Assembly (NCBI GenBank): GCA_051294375.1
Contig: CM119267.1
Span: forward strand, 24,048,111-24,112,110
Length of the DNA stretch: 64,000 nt
Direction: 5' to 3'
Source: Paraspadella gotoi
Lineage: Eukaryota > Animalia > Chaetognatha
Position 1 is the first letter of the stretch; every line of letters starts with the position of its first letter. Made by a program: the position numbers and the translations under genes. Below, piece by piece: positions 1 through 62,737 of this stretch. The notes beneath the pieces are model-generated. The model was not told where the DNA came from. It saw only the letters and a list, made by a program, of their open reading frames with translations, and made no database searches.

Positions 1-1960
1 AGGAGACAAAGGAGACCAAGGGGACAAAGGAGAAAAAGGGGATCAGGGAGATAAGGGTAACCAAGGGGACAAAGGCAACCAAGGAGATAAAGGGACCAAG
101 GGGACAAAGGAGAAAAGGGAGATCAAGGAGAAAAAGGTAACCAAGGGGACAAGGGTAACCAAGGAGACAAAGGAAATCAAGGAGATAAGGGTGAAAAAGG
201 AGATCAAGGAGATAAAGGAAATCAAGGGGACAAGGGCAATCAAGGAGACAAAGGGACCAAGGAGATAAAGGTGAAAAAGGAGATCAGGGAGATAAGGGAG
301 ACCAAGGAGATAAAGGCAATCAGGGAGACAAAGGAGATAAGGAGATAAGGGAGAAAAAGGAATACAGGGAGATAAGGGTAACCAAGGAGACAAAGGGGAA
401 CAAGGAGATAAAGGAGAAAAGGGATATCAGGGAGAAAAAGGTGTTCAAGGTGACAAGGGGAACCAAGGAGATAAGGGGAACCAAGGAGACAAAGGTGAAA
501 AGGGAGATCAGGGAGACAAGGGAATACAGGGAGAAAAGGGAGTTCAAGGAGACAAAGGGGAACAGGGAGACAAGGGTGAGAAGGGATATCAAGGAGATAA
601 AGGAATGCAAGGAGTTAAGGGTGACCAAGGAGACAAAGGGGACCAAGGTGACAAAGGAGAAAAGGGAGATCAGGGAGACAAGGGCAACCAAGGAGACAAA
701 GGCAACCAGGGAGAGAAAGGAGACCAAGGAGACAAAGGTGAAAAAGGAGACCAAGGAGACAAGGGCAATCAGGGAGACAAGGGTAACCAAGGAGACAAAG
801 GGGACCAAGGAGATAAAGGTGAAAAGGGTGATCAGGGAGACAAGGGAGATCAAGGAGACAAGGGGAACCAAGGAGACAAGGGGAATCAAGGAGACAAAGG
901 TGAAAAGGGAGTCCAAGGAGACAAGGGCAACCAAGGGGATAAAGGAAATCAAGGAGATAAAGGTGAAAAGGGTGATCAGGGAGAAAAGGGAGTCCAGGGG
1001 GACAAAGGTGACCAAGGAGACAAAGGAAACCAAGGAGACAAAGGTGAAAAGGGAGATCATGGAGATAAGGGTGGCCATGGAGATAAGGGTAACCAAGGAG
1101 ATAAAGGCAAGCAAGGTGACAAAGGAGATAAAGGTATGCAGGGAGATAAAGGAGACCAAGGAGATAAGGGAGTCCAAGGAGATAAAGGGGAACAGGGAGA
1201 CAAAGGCGATAAAGGAATGCAGGGAGATAAGGGTGAACAGGGTGACAAAGGGAATCAAGGAGATAAGGGGGAACAGGGAGACAAAGGCGATAAAGGAATG
1301 CAGGGAGATAAGGGTGAACAGGGTGACAAAGGGAATCAAGGAGATAAGGGGGAGCAAGGTGACAAGGGCATTAAAGGAATGCAGGGAGAAAAGGGTACTC
1401 AAGGAGACAAGGGGACTCAGGGAGATAAAGGAGACCAAGGAGACAAAGGTGATAAAGGAATGCAGGGTGATAAGGGCAACCAAGGCGACAAGGGAGTACA
1501 AGGAGTCAAAGGGGACCAAGGAGACAAAGGCGAAAAGGGTGTACATGGTGATAAGGGAGCTAAAGGTGACAAGGGTTTGGAAGGAGACAAAGGAAAACAG
1601 GGTGACAAGGGAGTGCAAGGTGATAAAGGTAATCAGGGAGAAAAGGGTATGCAAGGAATGCAAGGTGATAAAGGTGAGAAAGGAATGCATGGTGACAAGG
1701 GTGTCGCTGGAGAAAAAGGTGAACAGGGAATGCAAGGCGCTAAAGGAGATAAGGGACACCAAGGAAACCAGGGTGTTAAGGGAGTCAAGGGCGATCAGGG
1801 GGCTAAGGGAGAACAGGGAATGCAGGGCCAAAAGGGTGACAAAGGAATGCAAGGAGCAACGGGCTTACAGGGTCCTCAGGGATCACAGGGACTTCAAGGT
1901 GAAAAGGGTGAGCATGGACATAAAGGCGTTCAAGGAGACAAAGGACCTCAGGGTGAACAA
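1..1960 (+). repeat. Collagen-coding 9-bp-period repeat (GDK/GDQ/GNQ/GEK/GMQ triplets), about 650 aa in one exon
   Basis: Continuous Gly-X-Y in ORF 605-2026 and upstream. Three single-base deletions near 92, 253 and 339 shift and then restore the frame. Confidence 0.95.
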
Positions 1961-4900
1961 GGCGGTCGACCCATCTACTACTTTTCACGTAAGTTTCTGT
2001 ATTTTTTTGATCAATATTTTCTATAATGCAATTTTAATATGAGTTTATTTTTATATATTTATTAAGTTTAAAGAAAAATATTTTCCTGAATGACTGACTT
2101 TAGGATAATAAAGATACATGTACAAATTACTGCAGATATATTTTTGTCATATTTTGTTTTTTTTTAAATTATTTTACTTGATGCGATAAACCTTTCGTTT
2201 TCGTTGTTGTTATGATTTAGAGAAAAAACAAAGTTTTTAATTGTGTTACAACGAATTTAATTAGAGATACGGACATGTTTCGGCTCACATTTCGAGCCTT
2301 CATCAGCGTTTGATGAAGGCTCGAAATGTGAGCCGAAACATGTCCGTATCTCTAATTAAATTCGTTGTAACACAATTAAAAACTTTGTTTTTTCTCTAAA
2401 TTATTTTACTATAATTTTTTTATACTAAAAGCCATGAATAGCGATTTTAATAAATGACATAAACAACATCAAAATTCGTTATAAATTATTGGGATCATTA
2501 TTATTATTATTATTTAAAAAAGAAATTCTAAATGACAAAAGCAAATCAAAATCATGACATATTTTTAAAACTTTGATAAGAAAAAGTTGTTTAATAATCT
2601 GAATACAAGCCGCATTGAATTATTTTTCTTCTTTAAATAACTTAATAATTAATGCATCTTTTCACAACACTTCTCTTTGTAGGCTTGGGCCACGTTTCCT
2701 CCGTGGCTTATCTTCCCTCCTTCAGTGTTTGCACAGTCACTAATGGCGTCGTTTCCATGTGCACTTACCTTCGTGATGACAACAAGATGGTGACAGTCAA
2801 CGATCCTTCCACTGTCTTTAAAATATATAAAAATGTAACAACAGAGACGGGACTCTGCACCACTCCTACTGTCACCTATGCCAATGTAAGAGAGTTAAAA
2901 TGATTAAAATATTCTAATTACTATTTTTCTATAAATTTTGTCATTTTTTTTACATTTAGGTGGCAGACTATCGCGTTAATGGAATTGTGAAATTTAATCA
3001 ACCAAGACCTACAAACGCAACAGCAAGCAATCATGACTTGATTCGCATCTGTTTCAATGTCAATGATTGCGCAGAAAACGTGAGTGTGCTCAGTGAACTG
3101 TGAAGCTTCTGAAGTTTTTCACATCAATGATTATTGATTAAATTACCTTTTTATTGCCCCATCAGTCGACTTACACCCCTGCGTCCAGTAACTACTTCGC
3201 TCCCGACCATGTGCTGCCCGCCTTTGTCTCTGGCGTCAAAATCCTTGACAGCACACCTGGAATTACAGATGCGCAAAAGAAGAGAGAACTTAAATGCGCT
3301 TTCAACACCATCGCCGAAGGATCACTCAGCGTGGGCATGAGTGGCAACTTCTTGGACAGTATTTTGCCTTCTAACCTCACCATCACAATTGAGCTCTTCA
3401 CGAACAATAACCAACGTGAGTAGTCGAGTGAATCACGTAAACAAGGGTATTTTTGATTGGCCTTTTTTTTTGCACATTAAGAGATCAATCCTTTCAATTC
3501 TTCTTTACTTATACAGCTGCTGGATCTATTATCACTCTTGGACAAAACTATCGCCTGAGAATATCATTAGACCAAGCCGCAGCTTTTCACCATGATTACT
3601 ATATTGCTTTGGTCCAAGTTACCGTCGCTGACAACCGTGAATTCATAGGCGCAACTCAAGTTGATCTGGTTCAAAGCGGTGAGAACATATTATTAAAAAT
3701 GAAAATCATTTATACACTTAAAATAAGTGGTTGATGCTACTTAGCTAAGACTCTTCCATTTTAAAACTAACATGGTCAGTTTGAGTATGAACTTTTTCGG
3801 AATATAGAAATGATGAGATAGAAATGAGAACCATATCAAAGTTCAAATCATGCCTTGACTAAAAATGAGTTAAGTCAGGTTTTGGAATCTTGGGATGATT
3901 TTATTGTCATGCTAAAGTCATGAACTGAAAAAAAGTCAGTCTCTTCTTATGAAGGATAAGACAGTAAATGATGCCATTTTTGAATAAAAACTAAAAAAAC
4001 ATATCATTTAATTAATACATCTTAAAACTGGAAATTTAAAACAGATACCGGAAAGGTTAACTGCCTTGCAAACTCTGGATTCTTCACTCAAAATTCAATC
4101 ACAGCGATCTCGGGAAAATCGGTGGAACTCTTATTTCAATCTTTCAAAGTAAAAAAAATATATTCATTCTATGTATATTTAATTTGTATTGTAAAAATTA
4201 TAATCTTTTAATTTTAATATAGAATAAATTACTGATCTGTCTGAACCAATCTAATCCTAATCTGTCTTTAAAAACAGTTCCTTCAACAAGCTGGAACGAA
4301 CATTTACATCAAGGCCACAGTGGCCATTTGCTTCAAAGATAAGACCAAGTGCCAAGCGATTTGCCCGACGACAAATAGAAGATCTGGCATCGACGATGAC
4401 AGCGTGAAGAAAGAGTCTGTCTTGCCCATTTATATCGAAGACAAGGCTGCCCGCTGTCCTCAACAGGTTTGGAAGAGAGATTTTTTTATAATCTGCATTT
4501 GGCAACCACTAGTAGTTCAATAATTCCGCTACCTGCATTCAAATTTGATCGAATCTCACAATCAATTAAATTAAATTTAATTTGCTTTTCTCTCAATCTC
4601 TAGGGCGGTATTAATCACGGAGCGACCGTCTGCTCGAACGGTACCCTTCCAAACTCCGAATGTACTCACTCTTGCGAGAAAGGATTCATGAATATCGGCG
4701 AACTGGAACAAGTTTGCGAGACCGGGTACGAGACGCCCGGCGGCGGTATCTACTACGGACTCTCGGCGCGTTGGAATCCAGAGGGTCAACCCAAATGCGA
4801 GGGTAAGGTTTATTCATTGAAAAAAAAATGCTTGCTCTCTTTTTTAAAAGCGCCCCGTTTCTGCCCCTGATAATAACAATATTAATTAATAATTATAGTA

Positions 4901-5425
4901 ATAATAATACTGATTAATGATACATAAAATTTTGATTATTTAATTACCAGACGTGAATGAGTGCCGACAGGCACAGTCTCCATGCCATCCGACACAAGTC
5001 TGCTTCAACAAGGATGGATCGTACGAATGTCGCTGTCCGAGCAATACGGACTGGCGAAACGGAAAGTGTCAGCCCAAAAAGTCAGCGGTGATGAGCATGA
5101 GAGCGACGAAGCGGAACTTCACCAATGACCTTCACGATAGAACCTCGGAGGCTTTTGCCAAAGAATCAGCTGCTTTGACTAATGAGGTAAAAAAAGAAAA
5201 GACTTGAGCGTCATTCCGCAATTTTTTGTTAGTTTGTATCGGATCACTATTTCAAGACTGATGCCTGGAATGTTTTAATATACAACTTAGCTAAATCTTT
5301 TGAAAAAAAATAACTGGTTGTCAGGGAGGAGGGTAAGTAGGCATAGTTTAGCCTTTTATTTGTTTAAACATTATTACATGATTTAAAATCATTACACTTT
5401 AATCTCTCTCGTCTCTCTCTCATCC

Positions 5426-5470
<45 letters not shown>

Positions 5471-6242
5471 GCAATATCTATACCAATCTATACCAAAGTC
5501 ATATTTTAATTAAACGACTAAATATTTCGATTCAGCTCGCCCCGCTCTGCGCCTCCGCCTTGGACGCCCCTTGGACAAAGATAACTGTCCTCGGTCTCCG
5601 CCCCGGAAGCGTCATAGTTGACTTCCGCCTCGAGGTTGGCGCCACTGTCGCCAATCAAGACATCGACGCGGACGAATTAGCGAAGAGAATCAGATTCCAG
5701 ATCGAAACGTCGAAAAATGAGTTTGGATTCGACCCCACCTCAATTCGGGTTGTGGGTAAGTCTGACGGGAAAGTTTAGCAGGGATTTAAATTGGGTTAAG
5801 GAAATTTAGACTCGTTTGTCTAAAAATTCCCCATTTCCCAGACCCGGACGAGTGCCTCCTTCCCTCGACCCACGACTGCCACGCCCACGCCACGTGCGTC
5901 AACGAGAAACTCACCTTCTCCTGCGTCTGCAACGCTGGATTCGACGACGCGGGCGACGTCCGCGGAAAGGGACGCGACTGCGTCAAGGTCGACGACAAGA
6001 GCGACGTCTGGCGAGCGATCGCGGGCGTCAACGAGACGTTCGACGCCGTGGGACGTCGCGTCGATGTCAACGAAGACGACATCGCCTCGAACAAAGGGGA
6101 AATAGATTACATGTTCGATTCGTCGACGATAATGTTCGCCGTCGCCTTCGTCCTCATATTCTGTCTGCTCGTTGTTCAAGTCGTCAAGTTCGTTCGTAGC
6201 AGAAGAAAGGACGGGCACAACGCCTACATGAATTCGGTTTAA
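1..6242 (+). CDS. Multi-exon type I membrane protein: collagen (Gly-X-Y) - ZP-N/ZP-C - CCP/sushi - cbEGF - SEA - cbEGF - coiled coil - TM - short tail; 5' end outside the window
   Basis: Phase-consistent GT-AG exons: <1-1988, 2683-2885, 2960-3079, 3166-3415, 3517-3678, 4045-4148, 4278-4466, 4604-4802, 4951-5186, 5536-5755, 5842-6242 (TAA), with AATAAA at about 6253. Motifs: ZP-like ITDAQKKRELKCAF, LFQSFKF and IYIKATVAICFKDKTKCQAIC; sushi CPQQ..NHG..C..ECTHSCEKGF..W..PKCE; DVNEC and DPDEC EGF repeats; SEA LRPGSVIVDF; TM IMFAVAFVLIFCLLVVQVV. Confidence 0.88.
2215..2401. mobile_element. Perfect palindrome (91-bp arms, 5-bp loop), probably an inverted Penelope-like element terminal-repeat remnant
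   Basis: 2215-2305 is the reverse complement of 2311-2401, with loop GCGTT. It contains a hammerhead motif followed by an AT-rich tail, as in PLE pseudo-LTRs. Confidence 0.75.
2267..2311 (-). ncRNA. Minimal type I hammerhead ribozyme
   Basis: The minus strand reads AAACG-CTGATGA-AGGCTC-GAAATGT-GAGCC-GAAAC-AT-GTC-CGTAT: intact CUGAUGA/GAAA core, 5-bp stem II, palindromic mini stem III with GUC triplet, and ACG/CGT stem I. Confidence 0.75.
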
Positions 6243-7027
6243 AAAAAAAACAATAAATAAAAAAAGAATTAACTGTACAGTGTAGATAATTGGTTATGAG
6301 AGGTGTTAAGTGATGGACTTATTTATTGTTTTTGTTTGTACAATATTAACTCAAAAGTTTGGACGCTCAAAAGAGAATGCTTGGTGCTGAAAAACACCAT
6401 GACGCAAAACTATTGGATCTCAAAGCTCAACTAAAAAAAAAAATCGCAAAAAAATTGAAAAAAAAAAATTAATAAAAAAAAAGGAAACAAGAATAATAGA
6501 CTGGTACCTTTTTTTATGTATATATTGCGGTCTATTCTTCGAAAGCAATGAAACCTAAAAAGGGACGGTGCAGTTCTTGTATGCGACAAGGGAAGCCTTT
6601 ACAATTATAAGAACTTAAATACTGGTCCTCTCCGAAATTTAAACTGTAAATATTAGAAATAATGCATCAAAATTTCAAAATTGCTTAGCACGTGCATACA
6701 TTTACATAATTTCTAATGAATAGTTTTTAAAAACACTAAACTGTATAAATATCATTTACTCATAACCTACTTAAATCTACCGGAGAAAATAATATTATTT
6801 GATAAATTGTAGGTACAGTTTATTAGCTTTAAATGGTAGCTTTTAAATGTTTTAATCGCTTCTTTTTCTAATCGATAATCTATTATAAAACAATTTTATA
6901 AAACCGGGTTTGCTTATTTTCAGATTAATTAAGTTACTAGATTAACGCAGTGAAGCACTATAGTACAGATTCTGCCACTTTTTTTTCATCCACTGATCCT
7001 TATAATTTTTAGCTTAATTTTGTATAT

Positions 7028-11511: not shown

Positions 11512-12555
11512 TTTTTTTTTTTTTTTTCTGAAAGAAAACAGAGCAAACAAATAATTGCGGGAATGGTTGCAAAATAACTTCTGTCAACAATAAACGAGAA
11601 CAAATAAGGGGAAGATAAAAATGAAAAAGAAGAAGAGATCCGGGAGACAAAGTCAAGCAACTCCGTCCACATGAGACGGCAACTCAATCACGGCTTCGGG
11701 AAGCGAGCAGGTCCCCGTTCTCGCGCTGAAGGCAGACAGAAAGTCTCTCAAAAAAAGTGCTTAGACGTTTTGCCGATATCTAAGCCTGCATTCGTTGCTT
11801 GGAGTTTGGCGAAATCTTTTTAAGTTTGAGAAAGCATCCAGGTCCCATGCCCCGAAGGTAGTAACAACCAGAGGGATGAAGCCAACGTCGGCCGGCAGTT
11901 TGCCTCGTACTTAGCATGTTTGGCCTGGCGAGCTCGTTCCAGGCATAGGTGGGGTTGAGGATGGTATGACCAAACAGTCCTGGCGAAGGGGAGAGGTGAC
12001 AGTAACATCAAAGGCTGTGGTGGTCTTGTTCCGACATCTTTTCCAACCACGGATTGTGAAATCCCCTGGTCTAGAGGCATCATCCGCCAGGTTCCTTTCT
12101 TCTTTGGTGGGCGCAAGTAGGGCTGCTGAAGCAGTCGAGACAATGGCATCCCGAAGGAGGTATGACGGCGAATTTTGTCTCCAGTAGAGGAGCAAGCTGA
12201 AATGGCGTGGTCTCCATAGATGTCGGAAGGTCTGTCACAGGATAAGCAGGGACCAGGAGCTGGAAAGATGGGAAGCCCCAAACGGTATTTGACAGCCATG
12301 ATGAAGATTTGGGAGGTAGGCGCACAGCCAAGGGCAGGAGAAGGGATGACATTGAGGAAGTCTCCAGTTCTGGACAGGCAGACGGATTGGAGGACGGCTC
12401 GAAAACGCTCATCCAGGACCTTTGACTTGAGGTTTTTCAGCCTAGCTTCGTCCACACGTCGGAAAGGTATTTTTGGGTGATTGAGGCATCAAGCTGAGCA
12501 GGTGTGAGAGAGGAGGCTCCGGCGGAAAGGTTGGATAGGAGCTCTAAGGCCTGAG
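11512..12555 (-). mobile_element. 5'-truncated, frameshifted CRE-like non-LTR retrotransposon (zinc knuckle + restriction-like endonuclease, poly(A) tail)
   Basis: ORFs 11820-12455 and 11911-12195 give GDFLNVIPSPALG..YRLGLP..CLSCDRPSDIYGDHAISAC..RRH..E..RPGD..AFDVTVTSP, followed by AKHAKYEANC and ERLSVCLQRENG. A poly(A) run lies at 11512-11528 on the minus strand. Confidence 0.8.
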
Positions 12556-13795: not shown

Positions 13796-14644
13796 ATGAA
13801 AGGAAATAGCGTTTTCCTTTTGTTTCTTGTTGTTTTTGTCATCAACGTCGAATCGCTAGCGCCGCCGCCACCGGAATTCGGTCCGCCCTGTTACTGTTAC
13901 CTGGGAGAAGATGGTAAACGGCGTTTTGTTAAGTTATTTCATGTTTTATTACGTGAAGTTCATTTTTGACATGTTTCTCATGGTCTAGATTTCAGAGAGG
14001 GGAATTTTCGTGCCGCGTCTCTATCTATCTATTTATCTATCTATCTAATCTATTCTATATATATATGTATCTATCTATCTCGCATAGCAACAGTGGAATC
14101 AAATTTAAAATAAAGATAATGGTCCCAAAGAAAAAGAGCTTGTGAATTGGAATGATAAAGAAGCTGGTACATTTAGTAAGCCAACTTAATAATAGTAATA
14201 TTGATCTATAAAATCAAAAATACTTATCTTAGAAATAGTAGCTTTTCAAGGCAGTTAATTCAACGAGCCAAAATCTATCAATTTCTCTTTCTCTCACCCC
14301 CCCACACAATTCTCGCAGCCGACTCCAGCGATCCCGAATGCTCCTGCGATGAAATCAGCTCCACCTTCGAAACCGCCCGCTGCTCCTGCGACGGACGTCC
14401 GCTCCACTGGCGCGGCCGCCCCGACCTGACGACGTGCAACTGCAAAATCACTCGGCCCTTCGTGCTGCCGCCATGCCCGCCGACCGCAGCACGGCCGCCC
14501 GATGTCGCAACTGGCCGAGGGTCGCAGCCACAAATGGCCGGTCCGCCGGGATACGACGGCTGGCAGCCCTACCCATGCCGAAGCGGTCCGCCGAGGCTGC
14601 CTGGGCCGCCTGCGATACCTGCTTCGGGCTGCCATTGCGACTGA
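13796..14644 (+). CDS. Small secreted Cys(CxC)/Pro-rich protein, two exons
   Basis: Exon 13796-13913 (MKGNSVFLLFLVVFVINVESLAPPPPEFGPPCYCYLGED, signal peptide, phase-1 GT) joins exon 14319-14644 (ADSSDPECSCDE..RCSCDG..TCNCK..GCHCD*). The 3' end abuts an N gap and may be noisy. Confidence 0.6.
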
Positions 14645-17249: not shown

Positions 17250-17753
17250 AAATTTCAATCGTCTTTTATTTTCAGTTCTTCGCTCCGTAATTAGCTAGTA
17301 GTGAAGTCACGCGGATTGACATTTCAAGGCATCGGACGTTTAGCTGGAATTGCCTACTAGCGCAATTGGACTCCACCTGTCCCTCTCCCCCCAAAAAAAC
17401 ACTGGGCATTTTCAGCATTGGCTCAATATCAACTTGACCCGAAACGAAAGGAACAGTGTGGGCTTACAAGATTAGAGATATATTTTATTCAACTCACAAT
17501 TTTTTTTTTCAGTGAAAAATCACGCTTTTTGCCGCACGATAAATCTGGAGCGGGCCGACACTGAGCCGACCGCCGCTTGTCGTCTCGGCGGCCGACAAGC
17601 GCACGCCTCTCCGTCAAAAGACCTGAGGCTAAGGCCTTTGCCATCGTGAACTTTCCTTATCTTCTGCTCGATCAACCATAACTGAACAATTCCTTCTCTC
17701 TCTCTCTTTTTTTTTTTTTCTCCTTTTTTTTTTTTTTTTTTTTTTTTTTTCTC

Positions 17754-17831
<78 letters not shown>

Positions 17832-18332
17832 CCTCCCTTCCCCCCAACCCTTCACCATGGCGATGATGACGACCTGGTGGGGAGCTCCTTCTCACCGCGC
17901 TCGCCGTCTTCTCCTTCTCTTCGCCTTCGGAGTCAAAATCGGCATCATCGCGCTTTCGGACGCGGCTGCAGCGCCGCGCCTGCCGGCGGCCGCTGCGCCG
18001 CCTACTGCTGCTGCTGCGAGGCGATGGGCGGGTCTCCCTTGGCTCTTCGAAGCCGGAAAGAGGGCGCCGTGTCGCCGGAAAATGGCGACGACGCCGGGAT
18101 GGAAAGGCGTCGTGGAACCGGGAGTTTGTATTCGGCCGGAAGCGGAAGTGAGCGTGGCGGAAACGGGGGAGAATGGGGTTGTGAGTTGTGTTTTGGGTGG
18201 TGTGGGTGGGATAGAGGTGGGGAATGTATTAAAGAGAGTCACAACAAAAACAATAAAAACAATTGTGAATCGTGATCGTGAAAGAAAACGAATAGAAATT
18301 TTAGAGTTTTGGTCTTTAATACGAGAGGAGAG

Positions 18333-18377
<45 letters not shown>

Positions 18378-18813
18378 GAGAGAGAGAGAAGAGAGAGAAA
18401 GAAGAGAGAGAGATAGAAATAGAAAGAGCTGTTGTTTGGTGTTCGAATCGATTCGGACGGAAGAGGCCTTCTGAATCTCAAATTATTTTCGGTAAAATTA
18501 TAATTCATCGTTCGATCCACCCTAATAATTAATCGAATTGAATCCACCTACGTAGACGGGACCAAGAGTCTACTCCGATTTACCCACTTACGAGGAGCGG
18601 CGGGTGGCGGCGGCGGCGGTGGCTGCGGCGGGCGGGGCCGACGAACAACGAGGCGGGTTTACTGCGTCAGCGGCGGCGGCGGCGAACGGCGCCACCGCCA
18701 GTAGAAAATTACATTACCGCCTACGGAATGGCGACGTTCGCCGTCGCCGGAAGAGGCGGTGGCGGGCGCTGGAGGTGGCGGGGGTGGCGGTGGAGGCGTC
18801 GGGGGCGCTAATC
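17250..18813 (-). CDS. 3' exons of an unidentified Pro/Ala/Arg-Ser-rich gene (duplicate at about 20950-22170)
   Basis: GC-rich blocks, most bounded by AG/GT: about 18813-18592 (LAPPTPPPPPPPPPAP), 18170-17856, 17662-17524 and a last exon VNALEAIPLNVDALKCQSGDFTTANYGAKNWKIKDDEI* (clean in copy 2). Confidence 0.4.
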
Positions 18814-20861
18814 TTGGAGGGGCGGGATAGGATTACGAAAAGAGCGAATACCATCGCTTACTTTATTTTATTTAATGTTTAATTTTTTTGAATTTCAAAA
18901 GTGACGTGTTATTTATAAAACGATTTTTACAATAAGTTATAACTTCTGCGTTTTTAAAAATACAGATAATTTTGATTGCATTCTTGTCTTTGTGCAAAAC
19001 CTCTGCCACGCCAATTGCTTTATCGTTTACCTATTTAATTAACGTTTTTAAATTTCGTGGAATGGAAAAAATGCTCCGAAGTGGAAAGTCCTGACTAAAT
19101 AGCGACTATTACATACATGTAAGGTTGCCCAATGCGCAGTTGTCTACAATGCGATACAATTGCTTAATTGAATAATAATTAATAATACAAATCGGTTGGT
19201 TATGCTCGTTTATTCTATACAAAGAGATAAAAGTCTTCGTGAATTAATCAACAGCAAATATCAATGTAATATAAATAAAAAACACATGAAAAAGATAACA
19301 AAGAAATGTTCAATAAAACCAATGAGCCATGAGTTAATACTATATTTAGATAAGGCATCACCGAGTATTCTACAAGTTTTTTTCAAATAATTCAGTCCGG
19401 GTTCAGTTTTCATGGGTTTTTTTAAAATCCAAATTTAGAGCAAAAAAGGGAAAAAAAATATTATATATTAAAAAAATATATTCCATTCTCAAATTAAAAA
19501 AAAAAATAAATGGATCACACTATATTTTATCAACCGTTTTTAAAAAATTCGCTCTTTGCAGAAAAAGATATTATTCGATAAAGCCTATCTATTAAATTTT
19601 AATTTAATTTTAATTATAATTTAATTTTAACTTAAATCTCAGCGAAATACGAGAAGATTAGATCAAAAAGAGTTGAATGTAGAATTAAATGACATATTAA
19701 AAAAACTAATTAGTTTAAAAAAAGAATAATAAAAGGACAGGCCAAAAATTAAGATAGGGTTTTTTTTTTGTGTGTGGTGTTGTTTTACTAAATTAGACTT
19801 TAAATTTTATATTAAAATTAAAATTTAAAGTAAATTTAAGAATTTAATAAATTTCACTATATATTAAATTTAATTATATTCTTTATATAGAGTATATTCT
19901 TTTATAATGTTATGGGGAGAGGGATGTTAGTGTTGGCTCCTGGAAATAGAGGGAGCATCTATACAACACAAAGTTATTTAGTTAGTTAGTAAAAAGATTT
20001 TATGTCGTTTTAGAGATTTAAAAATCTTGTTTATAATCATATATTCATGTATAAACGTTTATTTTACACAGTTATCATTTAACGGTTTAGCCGTAATTCG
20101 ACTTGAATAGCCACAGTAGGGAGACAATTAATAATACGTTCATAAATTAGCCGTCCATTAGCTTCGTATCCCTTGGCGATTGGCGGCTACGGGACCATAC
20201 CTGAGATGGATTTTTGGGCAAAACCAATTTTGACGCCGACCGACAGAATTTTACTGACTGACTGACTGACCGACCCACCGTGCCAGATGATGCCGTGTCT
20301 AAAAGTTGTGCGCAATTGCATGTCGACGACGACGGTTGACCTTTTGTTTATGAAGAGCAAATTTCGTCTGCTTGAGGTTTCGCCGAAAATGGTGCGACTT
20401 TGCGTGCGAAGACTATGAAGTGCATGAGGGAAAATAACCTTGAGGCTTGCGAGATAAGTAATGAATAATAATAAAATAAGATTTATAATAATAATATATT
20501 TTTTTTTCTCAAAGAATGACCATGTCGTTCTTTAGCAAAAAATCTCTTCGACAATTTGCAAAAAAAATCTTATCTTCTATTGATCCACCCTATTGTCATC
20601 TTATCTCTCTCCTCCTCCGCCTCCTCCTTCTCTTCCTCCTCCTCCTCNNNNNNNNNNNNNNNNNNNNNNNNNNNNNNNNNNNNNNNNNNNNNNNNNNNNN
20701 NNNNNNNNNNNNNNNNNNNNNNNNNNNNNNNNNNNNNNNNNNNNNNNNNNNNNNNNNNNNNNNNNNNNNNNNNNNNNNNNNNNNNNNNNNNNNNNNNNNN
20801 NNNNNNNNNNNNNNNNNNNNNNNNNNNNNNNNNNNNNNNNNNNNNNNNNNNNNNNNNNNNN

Positions 20862-20892
<31 letters not shown>

Positions 20893-23800
20893 AATAGAGA
20901 GTGAGCGAGAGAGAGAGCGAGAGCGAAAGCGAGAGAGAGAATCCCGTTTTTAAATTTCATCGTCTTTTATTTTCCAGTTCTTCGCTCCGTAATTCGCAGT
21001 AGTGAAGTCACCGGATTGACATTTCAAGGCATCGACGTTTAGTGGAATTGCCTCTAGCGCATTGACCCCNNNNNNNNNNNNNNNNNNNNNNNNNNNNNNN
21101 NNNNNNNNNNNNNNNNNNNNNNNNNNNNNNNNNNNNNNNNNNNNNNNNNNNNNNNNNNNNNNNNNNNNNNNNNNNNNNNNNNNNNNNNNNNNNNNNNNNN
21201 NNNNNNNNNNNNNNNNNNNNNNNNNNNNNNNNNNNNNNNNNNNNNNNNNNNNNNNNNNNNNNNNNATAAATCTGGAGCGGCCGACATGAGCCGACGCGGC
21301 TCGTCTCGGCGGCCGACAAGGCACGCCTCTCCGTCAAAGACCTGAGGCTCAGGCCTTTGCCATCGTGAACTTTCCTTAGTCTTCTGCTGCGATTCAANNN
21401 NNNNNNNNNNNNNNNNNNNNNNNNNNNNNNNNNNNNNNNNNNNNNNNNNNNNNNNNNNNNNNNNNNNNNNNNNNNNNNNNNNNNNNNNNNNNNNNNNNNN
21501 NNNNNNNNNNNNNNNNNNNNNNNNNNNNNNNNNNNNNNNNNNNNNNNNNNNNNNNNNNNNNNNNNNNNNNNNNNNNNNNNNNNNNNNNNNNNNNNNNNNN
21601 NNNNNNNNNNNNNNNNNNNNNNNNNNNNNNNNNNNNNNNNNNNNNNNNNNNNNNNNNNNNNNNNNNNNNNNNNNNNNNNNNNNNNNNGCTGCGGCGGCCG
21701 CTGCGCCGCCTACTGCTGCTGCTGCGAGGCGATGGAGCGGGGTCTCCCTTGGCTCTTCGAAGCCGGAAAGAGGGGCGCCGTGTCGCCGNNNNNNNNNNNN
21801 NNNNNNNNNNNNNNNNNNNNNNNNNNNNNNNNNNNNNNNNNNNNNNNNNNNNNNNNNNNNNNNNNNNNNNNNNNNNNNNNNNNNNNNNNNNNNNNNNNNN
21901 NNNNNNNNNNNNNNNNNNNNNNNNNNNNNNNNNNNNNNNNNNNNNNNNNNNNNNNNNNNNNNNNNNNGAAAGAGCTGTTGTTTGGTTCGAATCGATTCGG
22001 ACGGAAGAGGCCTTCTGAAATCTCAAATTATTTTCCGGTAAAATTATAATTCCACTCGTTCGATCCACCCTAATAATTAATCGAATTGAATCCACCCTAA
22101 CGTAGACGGGACCAAGAGTCTACTCCGATTTACCCACTTACGAGGAGGCGGCGGGTGGCGGCGGCGGCGACATCCGATCTCGCCCCCTCCCAAGGATTAA
22201 TGCGCCCCCGCCACCTCACGCCGCCTCCACCGCCGCCCCCGCCACCCCCACCCGCCCCACCGCCCCCCGCCTCTTCCGGCGACGCGCAACGTCGCCCATT
22301 TCCGTAGGCGGTAATTAATTTCCTCCTGGCGGTGGCGCCGTCGCCGCCGCGCCGCTGACGCAGTAATACCCGCCTTCGTTGTCGTCGGCCCCGCCGCCGC
22401 AGCCATCCGCCGCCAACGCCGCGCGCCGCCACGCGCCGCCGCTCCCACACGCGTCCTCTCGTAACGTATAACTAAGACCGTCTCCACGTATAGGGTAGGA
22501 TTATTCAATTATATAATTATATAGAGTGGATCAACGAGTGGAATTATTAATTTGACCAAAATAATTGAATTTCAGAAGGCCCTCATCCGTCCGAATCGAT
22601 TCGAACAAAACAACAGCTCGTTTCTCTTTTCTATTCTCTCTCTCTCTCTCCTCATCTCTCTCTCCTCTCCTCTCTCTCTCCTCTCTCTCTCGCTCCTCTC
22701 TTTCTCTCTCTCTCTAAGACCAAAATCTCATAAATCTTCTTTTTTCACGAATCTACTACATCATATGTTTTTATTGTAATCTCTCTCTTTTTTTTTTNNN
22801 NNNNNNNNNNNNNNNNNNNNNNGGATAGGATGACGAAAGAGCGAATACCATCGCTACCTTTATTTTTATTTAATGTTTAATTTTTTTTGAATTTCAAAGT
22901 GACGTGTTATTTATAAAACGATTTTTACAATAAGTTATAACTTCTGCGTTTTAAAAATACAATAATTTGATTGCATTTCTTGTCTTTGTGCAAAACCTCT
23001 GCCACGCCAATTGCTTTATCGTTTACCTATTTAATTACGTTTTTAAATTTCGTGGAATGGAAAAATGCTCCGACGTGGAAAAGTCCTGACTAAATAGCGA
23101 CTATTACATACATGTAAGGTTGCCCAATGCGCAGTTGTCTACAATGCGATACAATGCTAATTGAATAATAATTAATAAATACAAATCGTTGGTTATGCTC
23201 GTTTATTCTATACAAAGAGATAAAAGTCTTCGTGAATTCAATCAACAGCAAATATGAATGTAATATAAATTAAAACACATGAAAAAGATAACAAAGAAAT
23301 GTTCAATAAAACCAATGAGCCATGAGGTTAATACTATATTTTAGATTAAGGCATCACCGAGTATTCTACAAGTTTTTTCAAATAATTCAGTCCGGGTTCA
23401 GTTTTCATGGGTTTTTTAAAATCCAAAATTTAGAGCAAAAAAGGTTAAAAAAAATATTATATATTAAAAAAAATATTATTCCATTCTCAAATTAAAAAAA
23501 AAATAAATGGATCACACTATATTTTTATCAACCGTTTTTAAAAAATTCGCTCTTTGCAGAAAAAGAATATTATTCGATAAAGCCTACTATTAAATTTTAA
23601 TTTAATTTTAATATAATTTAATTTTAACTTAAATTCTCAGCGAAATACGAGAAGATTAGATCAAAAAGAGTTGAATGTAGAATTAAATGCACATATTTAA
23701 AAAAACTAATTAGTTTAAAAAAAGAATAATAAAAGGACAGGGCCAAAAATTAAGGATAGGGTTTTTTTTTGTGTGTGGTGGAGAGAGGGTAAGAGTTTGA

Positions 23801-26002
23801 TGGGGGGGGGGCGTTTAAAAAAAAAATCAACTCGTTTTTCTTTTGTTTTAATCTAAAAAATAAATCCTGAATTNNNNNNNNNNNNNNNNNNNNNNNNNTG
23901 TATTTGTTAAATTGTCGAATTTAGTGTAGAATAATAAATTAAACCATAGAAAGGCCGCCCAAACCGACGCGGTAAAAGAGCTCGGGGAATGAAAAAAGTC
24001 GGCCAAAAGACATGTCACCTTGAGAAGAATATTTATGAATTTAAAACAAAAATATTTTTATCAGATCAAACCTATTTTAACCTCATTAACTGTGCTGGTA
24101 ACTTATTTTCGATAATAATTTTTAAAAAGCAATAAAAATGGAATAATTGGCAGCAAGACTTAAAGCTGCCTCACTTGCTGTTCCCGTCCTCAGCCTTGTC
24201 TCGATGGCTGAAGCAGGCTAAAATCAATCTCGTTACCAATCCGTGCGTCTCCGTGCGTTCAATTCCTGGGCATCCCTGTTCTGCCTTAAATGCCGAGGGA
24301 GCCGGTGCTACAACCATGCCACAGTGACAGGTGACGGTCACACTAAGGAGTCACCTAAAGTGACGGTCCGTCACTAAGGGGTCCGCACTCCCGCCAGCCC
24401 TTACTGCCAGTTGCGGTGGAGATTCCCCGCGTCCCACGTATCTCAGGCATTCCTTCCCGTGCCATATATATAATATTATAGTTCTTATCATAACAAGGCG
24501 GTACAATATCGGACTCAGCATCATTATTATTTTAGATACCGTATAATATTTATATTATATTTGACTTATTAATAGTTATACGTTAATATGATCTATCTGT
24601 CTATTTAAATTAATCGTGTACAGATTTACTTATCTTTAAAAGATACACTCTACAGTTAACACGAACGTTTAAGATGTACTTAATAATTTTACCTTAATCG
24701 GTCCGCACTACACTCTTCCAATTGTCTACAGAGTTCGTAACTTTCTCTCGCAAGAACAAGGATTTACTTTTTCCTCTTAAGGAAAAGGGTATTTCCAAAC
24801 TCTCAATCTTGCTAAATAAGGGTCCATGAAAGTCGCGGACATGATTCACACAATTCAGACAGCTGGCTCCTGCCAATTCCGAAAGATGTTATTTCACTTT
24901 TAATACATTTGGATGCATATCTACGCCATTTTCTATCGGTATTTAATTTATAATAATAGAATTATAAAAAACCTATCTGAAGGTTGCAGGGTCAACCGAC
25001 AAGGCCAATCCAATCTGATATTTTTTATTTATATTTTATTAGTGAATTCGACAGTAAAATGTAATAGAAGGACATTTTTTTACAATTAACTGTGTATCAT
25101 GAAAATGAAAATTTTTAAAACTTTTTTAACTCCTGATGTATTCTTTCATAACTGGAACGCAATTTAATCACAAAATGTCTCTCTATTACAATTTTACAAA
25201 TGTTTTTGTAAGATAGTAACATAATTTTACAGAATTTCTAATGTGTGGTAATCGATACTATAGCAGTCGTTTAGGCTGCAAGCTTCTTTCAAATTCTGAA
25301 GTATAATTCATCTTTATAGCTTCAAATTTCACTTTACCATCTATTTAAGCTGAAAGATCTCCTTTCATTTGACTTGAAAATCCACACTACAGGGAGAGTA
25401 GCAGAGACTAATTGTTTTAAATTCTCCCCCTCAAATTTGCCTTTTACCGTTGATTTAACTTGCTTACCTTAGAAATTGTTAACAATCAATTGACAAGAAA
25501 CAAATTATAAAAATTGTGCTTACTCCATTTAACTTAACCAAGTTTTGTATTTACCGTTTAACTAAAACAAAATGATTGAGATAACAGAATGGTATGTAAA
25601 CCATAAATAATAAACTTTAATTTTTTGTGATTACTGATGACCTATAAAGTGCTATCTGTCTCGCATTATGTGTTATTAGCTTTAATACAATTCAAAGATT
25701 AACGGATTGTTTATGCTGAGATATCCCTTTCCTCTGTGAATACATGTAAGCATATTAACTTCAGCTATGTCCTATATGTCATTATCAATCTCACTGTTGA
25801 CATGTGCTCATACATATATCACTCTCAATCATCTTACCGATCTTCTCATTCGAACTTCCCCTTGGTCGATTAGATCGCAATCTCCACTTACTATTCATAT
25901 ATCATATTTCACTCACTATTCCTCAGCCACCAATCTCTCGTAGGATTTCCCTTTGTGACTAATCGCAATCACATCTATCATTTTACGAATCACAATTCTC
26001 AC

Positions 26003-26965
26003 CGATTCTAATCGCTGACTCCCCTTTGTGATAAAGCCAACCACCGAAAGGTCGTTTCAGTTGAAGTCTAAAACCGATTGCGAACGCTAGGAACACCATC
26101 CAAACGTCCAATCGCAACGATGTAGGCCACCTTGAGATATAGCAACAAACCTATATTATTAAATACTAATTATTAATTTTTTTAAAAATAAAAATAAGAC
26201 ACAGAGCGTTTAGCAAAGCCAGTCCACCGATACACGGTGACTCAGAAAACCCTTTTTCACAAAATTGTTGTCTCGATTCATTACTTCACGCTTTCGTCTC
26301 ACTTAATCATCATTCAGTCGTTTGTTCAGTTCATCGTTTGGTCATTACATCAATTCATTCATTAATTCATTTCATTCATTCAATCATTTATTCCATTCAT
26401 TCATTCCATTCATTTCACTCCATTTTTTCATTCCATTCATTATTCATTCCATTCATTTCATTCCATTCATTCAATTTCCATTCATTCAATTCCATTCATT
26501 GCATTCCACAATTCATCCTTACCTATTGGCAGCGGAATTCTGACTGCTCTACAACCCGAATAACCATTCGCCACGAAGCACAAAGCTGTTGAGGGCGAAT
26601 TGTACGGCGGCGACGGGAAAATCCAGAGGCCGACGAACCAAGTTAAGAACGACGATCATGAGGAAGGGATGTAGTTGTAGAAATGAAAGAAGCGATTGAC
26701 GGCCGAAGGTCATCTGGCTTCGAGACACGTGAAGGCGCCTTGCGAAAGAGGGGTCTGGTGGGGGGGAAATGGGCAGGGATGGGTGGTTGAGAGAGGGAGG
26801 GAGATCCTTAGTATTATTAATTATTATACTTTGTATAAGGAAAGAAAATAAAAGGAATTTCTCAGAAATTTCTAAAAGGTCGGTCGCAAAACTTATTTAG
26901 TAATGATTTTGCCATTGTTTATTTTCAAAAATTAAGTTTCTTCTCTCTCTCATCCTCTTTCTCTT

Positions 26966-27017
<52 letters not shown>

Positions 27018-29571
27018 TTCTCTTCTCTCTCTCTCTCAATGATAATGCACATTTCAAAATTATCCATTCTACTCCAATTCAACCTCACTCCCAAGAAATA
27101 CAGAAAAAAAAAGAGACAACCAATCAAAGATTTATTAATTTAATATGATAATTTATTTTATTATTTTTGATTAAATGAATGGAAATTTTTTATTGTTTTC
27201 ACCATTTTATACTACAAGAGACAAGACTTACCCCGTGCTGTAGACCTTAGTGCATTCTGCGTTTCCACTTCTTGTCGTTCTTTCCGATCAAGACGTACAT
27301 CGGATCGTCAGTCTCCTAGACAATTCAACCGGATTTGTGGCGAAACGAAAAGACAAACGTTTTCTGGTTTACCCGTAAAGATGTCCACTTGAAGCCGCAT
27401 TGCTGGACCAAGCCGAAATGGGGGGGTTGTAATTTGGTGAAATCGTGGGTAATATGATGGTAATAATATAGTTATTTCATTGAGCTAATGATGCAATAAT
27501 CAGGGGTAATATTTTAGTATAATCTAGTAATCCATCATCCGTTAATAATTTTTATAATCTGGTAATCATCTTTTGTAATCATGGTATAATTATCATGATA
27601 ATAAACAATTTGGTAATATCATCAACCATGTACTAAAACCATGTATCACCAGACGGACGACGGATATTCGCATTGAGAGATGGATACAATAATACAAAAT
27701 ACAAACGCGACTGGAGATTAATTAATAACGAAGACAAACCAATTTTTAGGCATGATTAAATAGCAACAACAATCAACTGGGAGTAACCAGACAGAAACAA
27801 AGAGAACAGAGAGGCAGACACGACCAGACAGACAGAACAGACCGACTTACGCGGTTTTCCGATTTACCTCGAATCAAAGGAAATCTGGCCAATGACTCGC
27901 GCAGTGGAAAGAGTGAGAAAGTAGAATCTTTGGCTGAGAAGAACTCACCGTTCGAGGCGATTGCGGATGTTCTGTTGGGCTAAGAAAGGGATTCGGATTG
28001 GCGGAGATCAGAATTTGGTTGGCTGAGATCAGAAATAAGATGTGGGTTGAGATCAGAAGATTGGGTGATATTAAAAAAAGTCCCCTCGCCCCTACTAATC
28101 TAATCTCTAAACCTTGATCCTTATCTTAATCCATTAAGCTAATCCTTAATTCTAAAAAATAACTTAATAATCCAATATAGTATGAGAATTAGAAATAAGT
28201 TCCCGAGAGGAGGGCTGAAGTAAAAATCTGAAAAACTACCTATGAAACTAAGGGATTCTTCTCAGTTCTAACCTTCACCTGGGTGATGTGTGTGAAGTTC
28301 TCCCCGCTTCTCGTTATGAAGAAACAATCGGTGATACCAATCTTGTCGACGAATTTGGCCGGAAACGACGACAGATCCCGTGAAGTTGGCATTGAGTCTC
28401 GCGCCACCCAACGCGTCTGTGGAGGGTGATGGGTTGTGGGGATGATGTGATAATTCTCAACCAATTTATTGTAAATTATCAATTAAATTTTTATAGATTA
28501 TTAAAGTCATACTTTATAAAGATTTCAATGGAGAGATCAGAGATATGGAAAATCTTAATCAAAATAAAATGCTAAAAGTAAATGCCCTTACAAAACTTTT
28601 ATCTAAATTAATCTTTATTCAAAAGTACAAATAAATAAGTTAATGTAAGAGTGAATAAACAAGACTGTGAGAGAGTCTGATGAAGCTTCAGCCTGCTATG
28701 TTATATCTGTAAGAGTGGATGGAGGCTAACCCAACGCTGTCCAAAGTGCAAGATAAGCTGTTTATTAAATGAATAGATAATTTTTAAATTGTTGTACCAA
28801 CTTCATATAATAAATGATATATAAAAACATTATTTCGCGGATTCATTGAATCTTTTTAGGCGGCTCAAAAGTCTAGATAGAAATAAACTGCTATTTATTA
28901 ACCACCAGGCTGTCCAAAGTCAGGGTTAAGATAGCTTGCTATTAAAGAATGGATAATTTGTTTTACCAATCCTAAGTTATAAAAAAAATAACTCAAAATA
29001 ATATATCGATTGTGAATCCATTATTTGATTCTGAAATGGAAGTAATGAGGCGACGAAAGCGTTAATACGATTTTAACTGGCTCGATCCATCGTCGGGTCG
29101 AAACGCGTGCGTCGTAGGTGGGTCTAAAATTGTTAAAAGTATGATTACAATTTAATTCTATCATTGTAATTGGTTTTCGAATCTTGCCTTCAGCGGAGCG
29201 TGATGGTTTCGAGGATAACTTTGTTTCTAAATACAGTTTAACTATTCTTTCTTTTCTTTTTTCTTTTCTTTATTTCTTTTCTTTTCTTTTTCTTTTCTTT
29301 TTTCTCTTTCATTCTCTATTTGTCTTTTTTTTCTTTTCTTTCTTATTTTCTTTTTCCGTTCTTTTCTTTCTTTTTCTTTTTTTTCTTTTCATTTTCTTTT
29401 TTTCTTTTCTTTTCTTTCTCCTTCTTTTCTTTTCTTTTCTTTCTTTCTTTCTTTACTTTATTTTATTTTTTTTCTCACCCTAGCAACGCGGTCATAATCT
29501 TCGTTTTCTCGAGATCTAGAAGCATCACAGCAGTTGAAGGAGTAAACAAAGAAACAATACAAAGGCGCCAT
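26003..29571 (-). pseudogene. Frameshifted second copy of the Cys-loop channel gene (probably an error-rich assembly duplicate)
   Basis: Contains the same seven exons as 31326-35039, each with several indels. Confidence 0.6.
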
Positions 29572-54342: not shown

Positions 54343-55654
54343 CTCTTTCTCTTCTCTCTCTCTCTCTTCTCTCCCTCCCTCTCTCCTCCCCCTTCTCCTC
54401 TCCCTCTTCCTCCCTTCCCTCCATCTCTCCCTCCCCCTCCCTCCCCCCAAAAAAACACCTGTTTCTATTCTGATTCGCCATCTTCGTCTTTCTCCTATTC
54501 CTCCCCCCTTCCCCCTCCTCTTCTTTCTCTCCCTCCCCCTCTCCTTCCCCTCCCTCTTCCTCCCTTCCCTCCATCTTCCCTCCTCCTCCCTCCCCCCAAA
54601 AAATCACCTGTTTCTATTCTGATTCGCCGTCTTCGTCTTTCTCCTTTTCCTCTTACTCTCGTAAATCTTTAATCCATCTCCTTTATCCTCCGATTCTCCT
54701 TCTTCCCCCTCCTCCTCCTCCTCCTCCTTCGCCGCCGCTCTCCTCCTCTTCATGACTGCGATGAAGATGAAGACGCCGGCGACAACGGCGACGCCGAGAA
54801 CGAGTCCCGCCACCCAAGCGGCGATGGCGCCCTGCATCGGGTCCGCTTTGGAGGAACTGCCGGCTGTGACGCCGGAAAGCTGAGGTTTGAACGAGACGTA
54901 ATTTAAGAAATGATCATTAGATATATTCAATAATAATAGAACCTAATATATTATTTAATAAAATTTTTTTTGGGGGGTTCAGAGAATAATTTATTTTAAT
55001 AAAATTAATAATAATATTAGTTATATAATATTAAGCGAGTACGGTGTATACAAATTCGTTGCGATTCATAAACAGAGAAGCCAGGTACTCTGAAAGTTAA
55101 TTAACTAGTTGGAGAGTCTGGATTGATTGTTATGTTATTATCTTGCAAGGGAAAATGTAGAAAATGAAAAAATGAAAATGAGGAAATGTAGAAAATGTTT
55201 ATTTATTATGCTTGGAGGGTCGCGCGTTGGAAGCGTCGGCCCGAGGTTGAACTGGCTGATGGATTGCACCAATTTTCATTAAGCATTTTTTAAAGAAATA
55301 ATTTTCAAGGTTTATCACTCACTTGAGGACTGACAGGATTTCCGGGTTCGTTTGGTACCGTCTGAAAAATGTGACAAAATATATTATTGAAAATTGCAGA
55401 ATTAGTTGTTTCACTATTTTTGACATTTTAAGTTTTGATATTTTATTTTTAATTTTTCTATGTTTTATTCATTTATTATTATTATTGTTATTATTATTAT
55501 TCATTTCATTTTAAAATACATCTTTTATTTCAGATTTTATATTATATTTTCTATATTTTTCAATATTTCAATATTTTATATTTGAAATATTTAAATTTTA
55601 CATATTTTATATTTTAAATATTTTTTATTATATTTTCTAATTTTCTAATTTTTT

Positions 55655-55709
<55 letters not shown>

Positions 55710-55739
55710 CCACGAGTATCTTGAGGTCCGCCCTGCATG

Positions 55740-55821
<82 letters not shown>

Positions 55822-62678: not shown

Positions 62679-62737
<59 letters not shown>

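What the first reader, a model, noticed from the sequence alone, without database searches (positions are those of the whole stretch)
1..6242. Membrane-anchored collagen fused to a ZP polymerisation module, CCP, EGF and SEA domains
Seen: eleven phase-consistent exons join a >=650-aa Gly-X-Y rod to ZP-N/ZP-C, sushi, cbEGF, SEA, cbEGF and a C-terminal TM. Established: ZP modules normally sit just before the membrane anchor and polymerise after cleavage, and the known transmembrane collagens (XIII, XVII, XXIII, XXV) are type II proteins. Inference: this is a type I collagen-ZP hybrid that could build ZP filaments decorated with triple-helical rods, i.e. an apical matrix, egg-coat or adhesive component. 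I do not recognise this architecture from any named family.
Basis: partly seen in the sequence, partly recalled or inferred. Interest (0 to 1): 0.82.

Follow-up and report, generated by a model that had tools for sequence, protein, structure and literature searches.

The report
Proline-free collagen fused to ZP module
An animal gene joins a long, almost proline-free collagen rod to a likely egg-coat-type (ZP) filament module and a predicted membrane anchor, so one protein would likely be cut loose at the cell surface and build a mesh of filaments tied together by collagen ropes, two matrix systems that are normally made by separate proteins.

Summary
The gene is real. Eleven GT-AG exons give one open frame of 1,243 residues: collagen, likely ZP-N/ZP-C, sushi, EGF, SEA, EGF, transmembrane helix.

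One correction: only 181 Gly-X-Y triplets (543 residues) are uninterrupted. The '>=650' needs reading through three one-base slips in 1-340, which are probably assembly errors. The N-terminus lies outside the window.

A contig of a probable RNA run matches the collagen end exactly and leaves the genome at the predicted donor. That run holds 0.49 of the downstream words, as expected for exons only. The letters beyond the donor were not seen.

EGF, sushi and SEA are supported by profile hits. ZP rests on cysteine spacing, FXF, cleavage-site and EHP motifs plus one weak language-model lead; no Pfam or structure hit confirms it.

The rod has 2 prolines and is predicted to be held by Lys-Asp/Glu salt bridges. 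No paper with collagen and ZP in one chain was found.

The scan already reported a similar gene 79 kb upstream, so this is likely one copy of a tandem family. Verdict: new variant of ZP matrix proteins.

The parts
2..340 (+). Upstream collagen repeats in Gly-X-Y register with three one-base-short units (probable assembly slips); runs off the window edge
341..1988 (+). Exon 1 (open part): 181 uninterrupted Gly-X-Y triplets (341-1969; 2 Pro; Y position Lys 96 and Gln 76 of 180 counted) plus start of the linker; GT donor at 1989
   Evidence: X1 record 7 matches 1810-1989 with 0 differences and then leaves the genome
1989..2026 (+). Intron-1 read-through to a stop at 2024-2026; contig depth of about 100 covers the intron start to about 2035: retained intron, pre-mRNA or short ZP-less form
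2683..2885 (+). Exon 2: linker and first half of likely ZP-N (Cys at 2730, 2760, 2856)
   Evidence: ZP assignment by eye
2960..3079 (+). Exon 3: likely ZP-N middle (Cys at 3050, 3068)
   Evidence: by eye
3166..3415 (+). Exon 4: likely ZP-N end (Cys at 3295), interdomain linker, likely ZP-C first strand (3376-3399)
   Evidence: Atlas gave no ZP lead for this exon
3517..3678 (+). Exon 5: likely ZP-C strands B and C, without Cys5
   Evidence: by eye
4045..4148 (+). Exon 6: likely ZP-C with Cys6 (4062); FXF motif across the exon 6/7 join
4278..4466 (+). Exon 7: likely ZP-C strand F (no Cys7), CysA/CysB/Cys8 (4329, 4350, 4362), dibasic site NRRS (4374-4385), EHP-like strand (4416-4439), first sushi Cys (4455)
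4604..4802 (+). Exon 8: sushi/CCP domain (six Cys with the one from exon 7)
4951..5186 (+). Exon 9: calcium-binding EGF and first part of SEA
5536..5755 (+). Exon 10: rest of SEA with GSVIV motif (5605-5619)
5842..6242 (+). Exon 11: calcium-binding EGF, stalk, predicted TM helix (6129-6185), 18-residue tail, stop; AATAAA follows at 6252

Best explanation
The gene is spliced into one protein in which a nearly proline-free collagen rod precedes a likely ZP module and a predicted membrane stalk, and this precursor would likely be cut at the dibasic site behind ZP-C so that the freed ZP modules would likely polymerise into filaments that the three-chain collagen rods tie together or bristle from. 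Steps: (1) Shown: open 11-exon frame, splice-out at the collagen donor, domain order. (2) Inferred: three chains zip into a triple helix of about 155 nm or more, stabilised by Lys-Asp/Glu salt bridges instead of hydroxyproline. (3) Inferred from uromodulin: the CCP-EGF-SEA-EGF-TM part is a long C-terminal propeptide that holds the precursor at the membrane with the EHP strand blocking assembly. Cleavage at NRR/S releases EHP. SEA self-cleavage at G/SVIV would be a second release point. (4) Inferred: only 22 residues separate the rod from the first ZP-N cysteine, so each rod holds three ZP modules close together. In a 180-degree, 62.5 A filament neighbours point to opposite sides, so the three modules would more easily enter different filaments and the rod would act as a three-way cross-link. 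(5) Speculative: alternating Gln and Lys at Y positions could be transglutaminase cross-linking sites that harden the coat. Tissue (epidermal coat, egg coat, adhesive) is not determined.
For: Exon chain and open frame. X1 record 7: 729 nt, 0 differences over 1810-1989, then 549 letters off the genome. The break falls after a G that is also exon 2's first base. Of 7 pyrimidine-rich acceptors in 2000-6000 that fit that break, 2683 gives the longest open frame (73 aa; next 62). X1 holds 0.49 of 388 sampled words of 2600-6300; exon-only expectation is 0.486-0.502. Atlas: exon 7 resembles clusters with PF00100 on 34%, 49% and 28% of members (scores 0.89, 0.89, 0.87). ZP-C cysteines fit Cys6, A, B, 8 with paired loss of Cys5-Cys7, which has precedent in CUTL-28 and NompA (PMC7456536 passages). 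FXF, cleavage site and EHP appear in uromodulin's order (PMC7737619 passages). KGD/KGE make 45 of 181 triplets (24.9%; 163 possible bridges by the i+2/i+5 rule), against 3-6% in most collagens and 13% KGD in viral ones (PMC11923368 passages and section 7). 0 of 12 listed variant letters change a Gly. N-terminal arms cross-link ZP filaments in egg coats, and the fish coat is hardened by transglutaminase (bioRxiv 2023.06.21.544075 passages).
Against: The 549 letters beyond the donor were not printed, so collagen-to-exon-2 joining is deduced, and none of the other nine junctions was seen directly. X1 is only guessed to be RNA, one run, one study. No Pfam ZP hit and no ZP hit in PDB sequences for exons 4, 5, 7. 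Atlas scores for exon 7 are under 0.9 with recognition below threshold. Exon 4 drew unrelated clusters. NRRS is dibasic but not an R-X-X-R furin consensus (recalled). By eye, the ZP-N fg-loop arginine that uromodulin needs (R415) is not evident here. A trimeric rod and a dimer-to-filament module have mismatched symmetry. Contig depth in intron 1 points to a ZP-less form. Three frameshifts in 1-340 are unexplained by reads.
Confidence: 0.5

Rival explanations
1. The fusion is real but the ZP module does not polymerise. It serves as the C-terminal trimerisation/registration and anchoring unit of a membrane-tethered collagen bristle, like the non-polymerising ZP of endoglin or betaglycan, shed at SEA or at the dibasic site.
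For: Triple helices usually nucleate at the C-terminus (PMC11923368 abstract) and no other trimerisation domain follows the rod. The ZP is degenerate (no Cys5-Cys7, fg-loop Arg not evident, no Pfam hit). An intact SEA motif offers ZP-independent shedding (PMC9564314 passages).
Against: FXF, a dibasic site and an EHP-like strand are all kept in the order used by polymerising ZP proteins.
Confidence: 0.27
2. The main product is not a collagen-ZP chain. Either the collagen exon mostly ends in intron 1 or splices elsewhere, or exons 2-7 encode some other cysteine-containing beta domain that only resembles ZP.
For: Depth of about 100 over the start of intron 1 with an in-frame stop at 2024-2026. 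Junction letters unseen. All profile and PDB sequence tests for ZP were negative.
Against: The spliced-out contig is deeper (218.6) and exact. There is no signal peptide or start context apparent at exon 2. Pfam finds only 45% of nematode ZP modules even at full length (PMC7456536), and here only 34-97 aa pieces were scanned.
Confidence: 0.14
3. This copy is a decaying paralogue of a tandem family: the three slips in 1-340 are real and truncate the protein before the ZP module.
For: Three one-base-short units; the shifted frames hit stops. A second, 91%-identical collagen end exists in X1 (record 8).
Against: Two of three slips shorten a G run in the same context, typical of long-read errors (recalled). 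The 3,729 coding bases downstream carry no break. The copy is matched exactly by a probable RNA contig.
Confidence: 0.09

Closest known systems
Uromodulin / GP2 / tectorin-type polymerising ZP-module precursors (PMC7737619)
   Same: N-terminal branch, ZP-N, linker, ZP-C with FXF, cleavage site, EHP, membrane anchor; EGF domains nearby
   Different: Branch is a collagen rod of 155 nm or more, not about 12 nm of EGF/D8C. The propeptide is about 380 aa with sushi-EGF-SEA-EGF. Cys5-Cys7 missing; six Cys in ZP-N; TM instead of GPI.
Nematode cuticlins (CUTL-28) and Drosophila NompA (PMC7456536)
   Same: Invertebrate ZP modules that lack the Cys5-Cys7 pair
   Different: Those carry PAN domains upstream; 'collagen' occurs 0 times in that paper's main text. 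In C. elegans ZP precuticle and collagen cuticle are separate proteins and matrices (PMC10538796 passage).
Transmembrane collagens: MACITs (XIII, XXIII, XXV) and type II C. elegans cuticle collagens (PMC10538796)
   Same: Membrane-linked collagen released by cleavage at a dibasic site
   Different: Those have an N-terminal cytosolic end and are cleaved N-terminally of interrupted helices. Here the anchor is C-terminal and the helix is uninterrupted and nearly proline-free.
MUC1-type SEA proteins (PMC9564314); UMODL1 (SEA, EGF and ZP in one chain; recalled)
   Same: Membrane-near SEA with a GSV-type motif; SEA+EGF+ZP combination
   Different: In UMODL1 SEA and EGF precede ZP (recalled); here they follow it, and neither protein has collagen.
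Viral and bacterial KGD/KGE-rich collagen-like proteins (PMC11923368)
   Same: Proline-poor rod rich in salt-bridge triplets
   Different: Here in a spliced animal gene. KGD/KGE reach 24.9% of triplets. None of 15 database hits checked was as proline-poor (3.3-14.9% Pro against 0.4%).

Membership tests
ZP-module proteins | Match to ZP profiles (PF00100, ZP-N, CUT) | tested here: inconclusive
   No hit for 6 of 6 exon pieces and 5 of 5 frames; only short pieces could be scanned; Atlas lead under 0.9 for exon 7, none for exon 4
ZP-module proteins | ZP-N with Cys1-Cys4 and Cys2-Cys3 | tested here: inconclusive
   Six Cys over 136 aa; pairing 566-701, 608-654 and an extra 576-648 assigned by eye only
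ZP-module proteins | ZP-C disulfides Cys5-Cys7, Cys6-Cys8, CysA-CysB | tested here: inconclusive
   Four Cys fit 6, A, B, 8; 5 and 7 absent as a pair, as in CUTL-28/NompA; assignment by eye
ZP-module proteins | FXF motif, basic cleavage site, EHP strand, then membrane anchor | tested here: met
   FKF at the exon 6/7 join, NRRS 4374-4385, hydrophobic strand 4416-4439, TM 6129-6185; site is dibasic, not R-X-X-R
ZP-module proteins | Ig-like ZP-N/ZP-C fold | not testable with these tools
   Spliced region could not be folded; exon 7 alone gave pLDDT 45.7
ZP-module proteins | Polymerises into filaments after cleavage | not testable with these tools
   Needs expression and EM
Collagen-domain proteins | Long uninterrupted Gly-X-Y run | tested here: met
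   181 triplets, Pfam Collagen E 2.7e-95
Collagen-domain proteins | Forms a triple helix | not testable with these tools
   163 possible salt bridges computed; 2 Pro; needs CD
MACIT / type II transmembrane collagens | TM helix N-terminal of the collagen, interrupted helices | tested here: not met
   Only strong TM is C-terminal; rod uninterrupted for 181 triplets; the N-terminus outside the window was not seen
Self-cleaving SEA proteins (MUC1 type) | SEA domain with GSVVV-type motif near the membrane | tested here: inconclusive
   Both SEA halves hit Pfam below cut-off; GSVIV present; no SEA hit in PDB sequences; cleavage untested

The most novel reading that the evidence does not exclude
A lineage-specific tandem gene family has merged the two main animal matrix-building systems into one self-assembling precursor. 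Hydroxyproline-independent, salt-bridge-zipped collagen rods cross-link ZP filaments three at a time, are hardened through Gln-Lys bonds, and are released by two independent cleavage switches; this would be a new kind of extracellular coat, probably in arrow worms.
Probability: 0.35. Interest if true: 0.8.

Novelty: new variant of a known kind. Interest (0 to 1): 0.6.

Why it matters
Collagen triple helices and ZP filaments build matrices side by side (for example nematode precuticle and cuticle) but, in the papers searched, as separate proteins. A natural fusion tests how a three-chain rod and a head-to-tail filament can be coupled. It offers an animal collagen that would fold without prolyl hydroxylation, which is of interest for recombinant biomaterials. 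It gives a candidate for the uncharacterised fibrous secretions or coats of its lineage. The modules themselves are all known, so the novelty lies in the combination and geometry.

Tried and rejected
No whole genome is held for this window, so the N-terminus and paralogues could not be read. My first exon model with an acceptor at 4223 hit stops and was replaced by exons 4045-4148 and 4278-4466. One search listed no holder on record as RNA; X2 and X3 laid 0 records, which is no evidence either way.

Homologue searches found no relative of the non-collagen part:
- exon 7, longer proteins: no candidate
- exon 9: 5 candidates, 0 significant
- exon 4 against 1.84 billion representatives: 3 hits, all repeat proteins (LRR, TPR and a third with long repeats) judged spurious
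- exon 11 in metagenomes: 5 loci matching only the EGF
- collagen end: 120 listed of 6,628 hits, 0 of 120 with a ZP Pfam; phmmer of the non-collagen part against the 123 stored proteins returned only the three spurious ones

PDB sequence searches with exons 4, 5, 7, 10 gave nothing relevant. The single-exon AlphaFold model was too poor for a fold search. No second copy lies elsewhere in the window (tblastn).

Literature: searches listed no paper that describes collagen and ZP in one chain, judged from listings and abstract starts. Supplements held as text for PMC12460157 (3 files) and PMC9290575 (1 file) had 0 occurrences of the terms. Supplements of the bioRxiv Spadella atlas could not be seen and may bear on this. 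Most subscription papers are outside the library, and no InterPro/CDART architecture search was available.

Full report
Observation. The window starts inside a purine-rich Gly-X-Y repeat. Splicing by coordinates gives eleven exons with GT-AG at 10 of 10 introns and a stop-free frame of 1,243 aa from 341 to TAA at 6240-6242, followed by AATAAA at 6252. Exons are GC-richer (0.39-0.58) than introns (0.16-0.38). Phase consistency alone is weak evidence, since each donor has 5-15 downstream AGs that leave 30 or more open codons. The chosen acceptor is the first such one in 5 of 10 introns. The model therefore rests on domain continuity and the run data.

Correction on length. Only 341-1969 is an uninterrupted rod (181 triplets). 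Bases 2-340 stay in register but hold three units one base short, two of them shortened G runs in the same context. These look like long-read errors (inference) and were not tested with reads. The N-terminus is outside the window and no genome is held.

Transcript evidence. One run, X1, guessed to be RNA and kept as contigs, holds 0.49 of 388 sampled words of 2600-6300. Words lying wholly in my exons make 0.486-0.502 of that stretch, which fits a spliced copy of exons 2-11. Laid on 1500-2140, X1 gave 204 records; X2 and X3 gave 0. Record 7 (729 nt, depth 218.6) matches 1810-1989 without a difference and continues for 549 letters elsewhere. The break follows a G that is both the first intron base and exon 2's first base. 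Those 549 letters were not printed, so the join to 2683 is deduced: of 7 fitting acceptors it gives the longest frame. Record 8 (3,118 nt, 12 differences in 136) is a second collagen end with about 2,980 further letters, a paralogue or a distant allele. Against a single product, depth of 78-101 covers the start of intron 1, where an in-frame stop lies at 2024-2026. The other nine junctions were not seen directly.

Domains. Collagen and both cbEGF domains pass Pfam cut-offs. Sushi (E 0.07) and SEA (E 0.014) do not, but exon 8's three best PDB hits are CCP proteins and the two SEA halves map collinearly on exons 9 and 10. SEA carries GSVIV, close to MUC1's self-cleaving GSVVV (PMC9564314, passages). 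One strong TM segment is followed by basic residues.

Is it ZP? No profile or PDB sequence hit supports it, but only pieces of 34-97 aa could be scanned, and Pfam returned ZP for only 45% of nematode modules (PMC7456536, passages). The ESM Atlas placed exon 7 near clusters carrying PF00100 on 34%, 49% and 28% of members (scores 0.87-0.89, recognition below threshold); exon 4 drew unrelated clusters. By eye, exons 2-4 give a six-cysteine ZP-N and exons 4-7 a ZP-C with Cys6, A, B and 8 but no Cys5-Cys7, a paired loss reported for CUTL-28 and NompA. Then come FXF, NRRS and a hydrophobic EHP-like strand in uromodulin's order (PMC7737619, passages; coordinates). The fg-loop arginine that uromodulin needs is not evident. 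I put the ZP identity at about 0.8.

The rod. It has 2 prolines in 543 residues; Y is Lys in 96 and Gln in 76 of 180 triplets counted; X is mostly Asp, Glu or Asn. KGD/KGE make 45 of 181 triplets, and the i+2/i+5 rule of PMC11923368 (passages and section 7) gives 163 possible bridges per homotrimer. That paper reports 3-6% for most collagens and about 50 bridges per human subtype. None of 12 listed variant letters changes a glycine and 4 are silent, modest evidence of selection on the register. At 0.286 nm per residue (recalled) the rod is 155 nm, or 188 nm with 2-340.

Mechanism. Shown: frame, order, motifs and splice-out. Inferred from uromodulin: membrane-held precursor, cleavage behind ZP-C, EHP release, head-to-tail polymerisation. 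Here the propeptide is unusually long (sushi-EGF-SEA-EGF-TM). Only 22 residues lie between rod and first ZP-N cysteine. In a filament with 62.5 A rise and 180-degree twist neighbours face opposite ways, so I infer that the three modules of one rod tend to enter different filaments and cross-link them. This parallels N-terminal cross-linking arms in egg coats and transglutaminase hardening of the fish coat (bioRxiv 2023.06.21.544075, passages). The Gln/Lys pattern as transglutaminase substrate is speculation. Rivals are a non-polymerising anchor (0.27), no fusion or no ZP (0.14) and a decaying copy (0.09).

Comparison and novelty. It works like a ZP matrix precursor; formal membership is not established with these tools. 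It is not a MACIT-type collagen (anchor on the wrong side; PMC10538796, passages). No relative of the non-collagen part was found, and 0 of 120 listed collagen hits carry a ZP family. Searches listed no paper with the fusion. In passages of a ZP review (PMC13361971) and a lophotrochozoan ZP survey (PMC9290575; supplement) collagen is not named as a ZP partner.

Organism and earlier notes. An unreviewed note on this genome suggests an arrow worm; I did not test this. In passages of two chaetognath papers (PMC12460157; bioRxiv 2025.01.31.635879) no such protein is described. PMC13330366 (passages) mentions an egg jelly coat and fibrous adhesive granules of unknown identity, which are candidate sites only. 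The scan had already noted a similar gene 79 kb upstream and a tandem family. Those notes repeat the idea and are not independent evidence; record 8 is my own sign of a second copy.

Verdict: a real, probably expressed gene with an apparently undescribed collagen-ZP-sushi-EGF-SEA-EGF-TM layout; new variant of a known kind; interest 0.6.

Noticed in passing
window 1989-2035: X1 contigs cover the start of intron 1 at depth 78-101 and then stop; read-through would end the collagen at a stop at 2024-2026, a possible short form without ZP or anchor.
   Followed up: partly
window 1810-1945 (X1 record 8): A 3,118-nt contig matches the collagen end at about 91% and diverges at 1945 with a different collagen terminus: likely a paralogue with about 2,980 further letters.
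   Followed up: partly
window 1500-1543: Summed contig depth of 21,000-29,000 over the generic GDK/GxQ repeat against 200-1,700 over the rest of the exon: many related repeat contigs exist in X1; not a measure of expression.
   Followed up: no
window 54604-56751 and 61277-62934, minus strand: Two similar-looking genes: an exon with a shared DFWLDY-C-P motif, then a TM-like segment with a charged tail; no Pfam hit above cut-off.
   Followed up: partly
window 11820-12488, minus strand: ORF that by eye resembles the tail of a non-LTR retrotransposon (recalled); no Pfam hit.
   Followed up: partly
window 14180-14644: Cys/Pro-rich 154-aa frame with no Pfam hit.
   Followed up: partly
window 17500-22050: A GC-rich stretch appears twice (near 17.9-18.2 kb and 21-22 kb), the second copy broken by N runs; 979 N in the window in 8 runs.
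   Followed up: no
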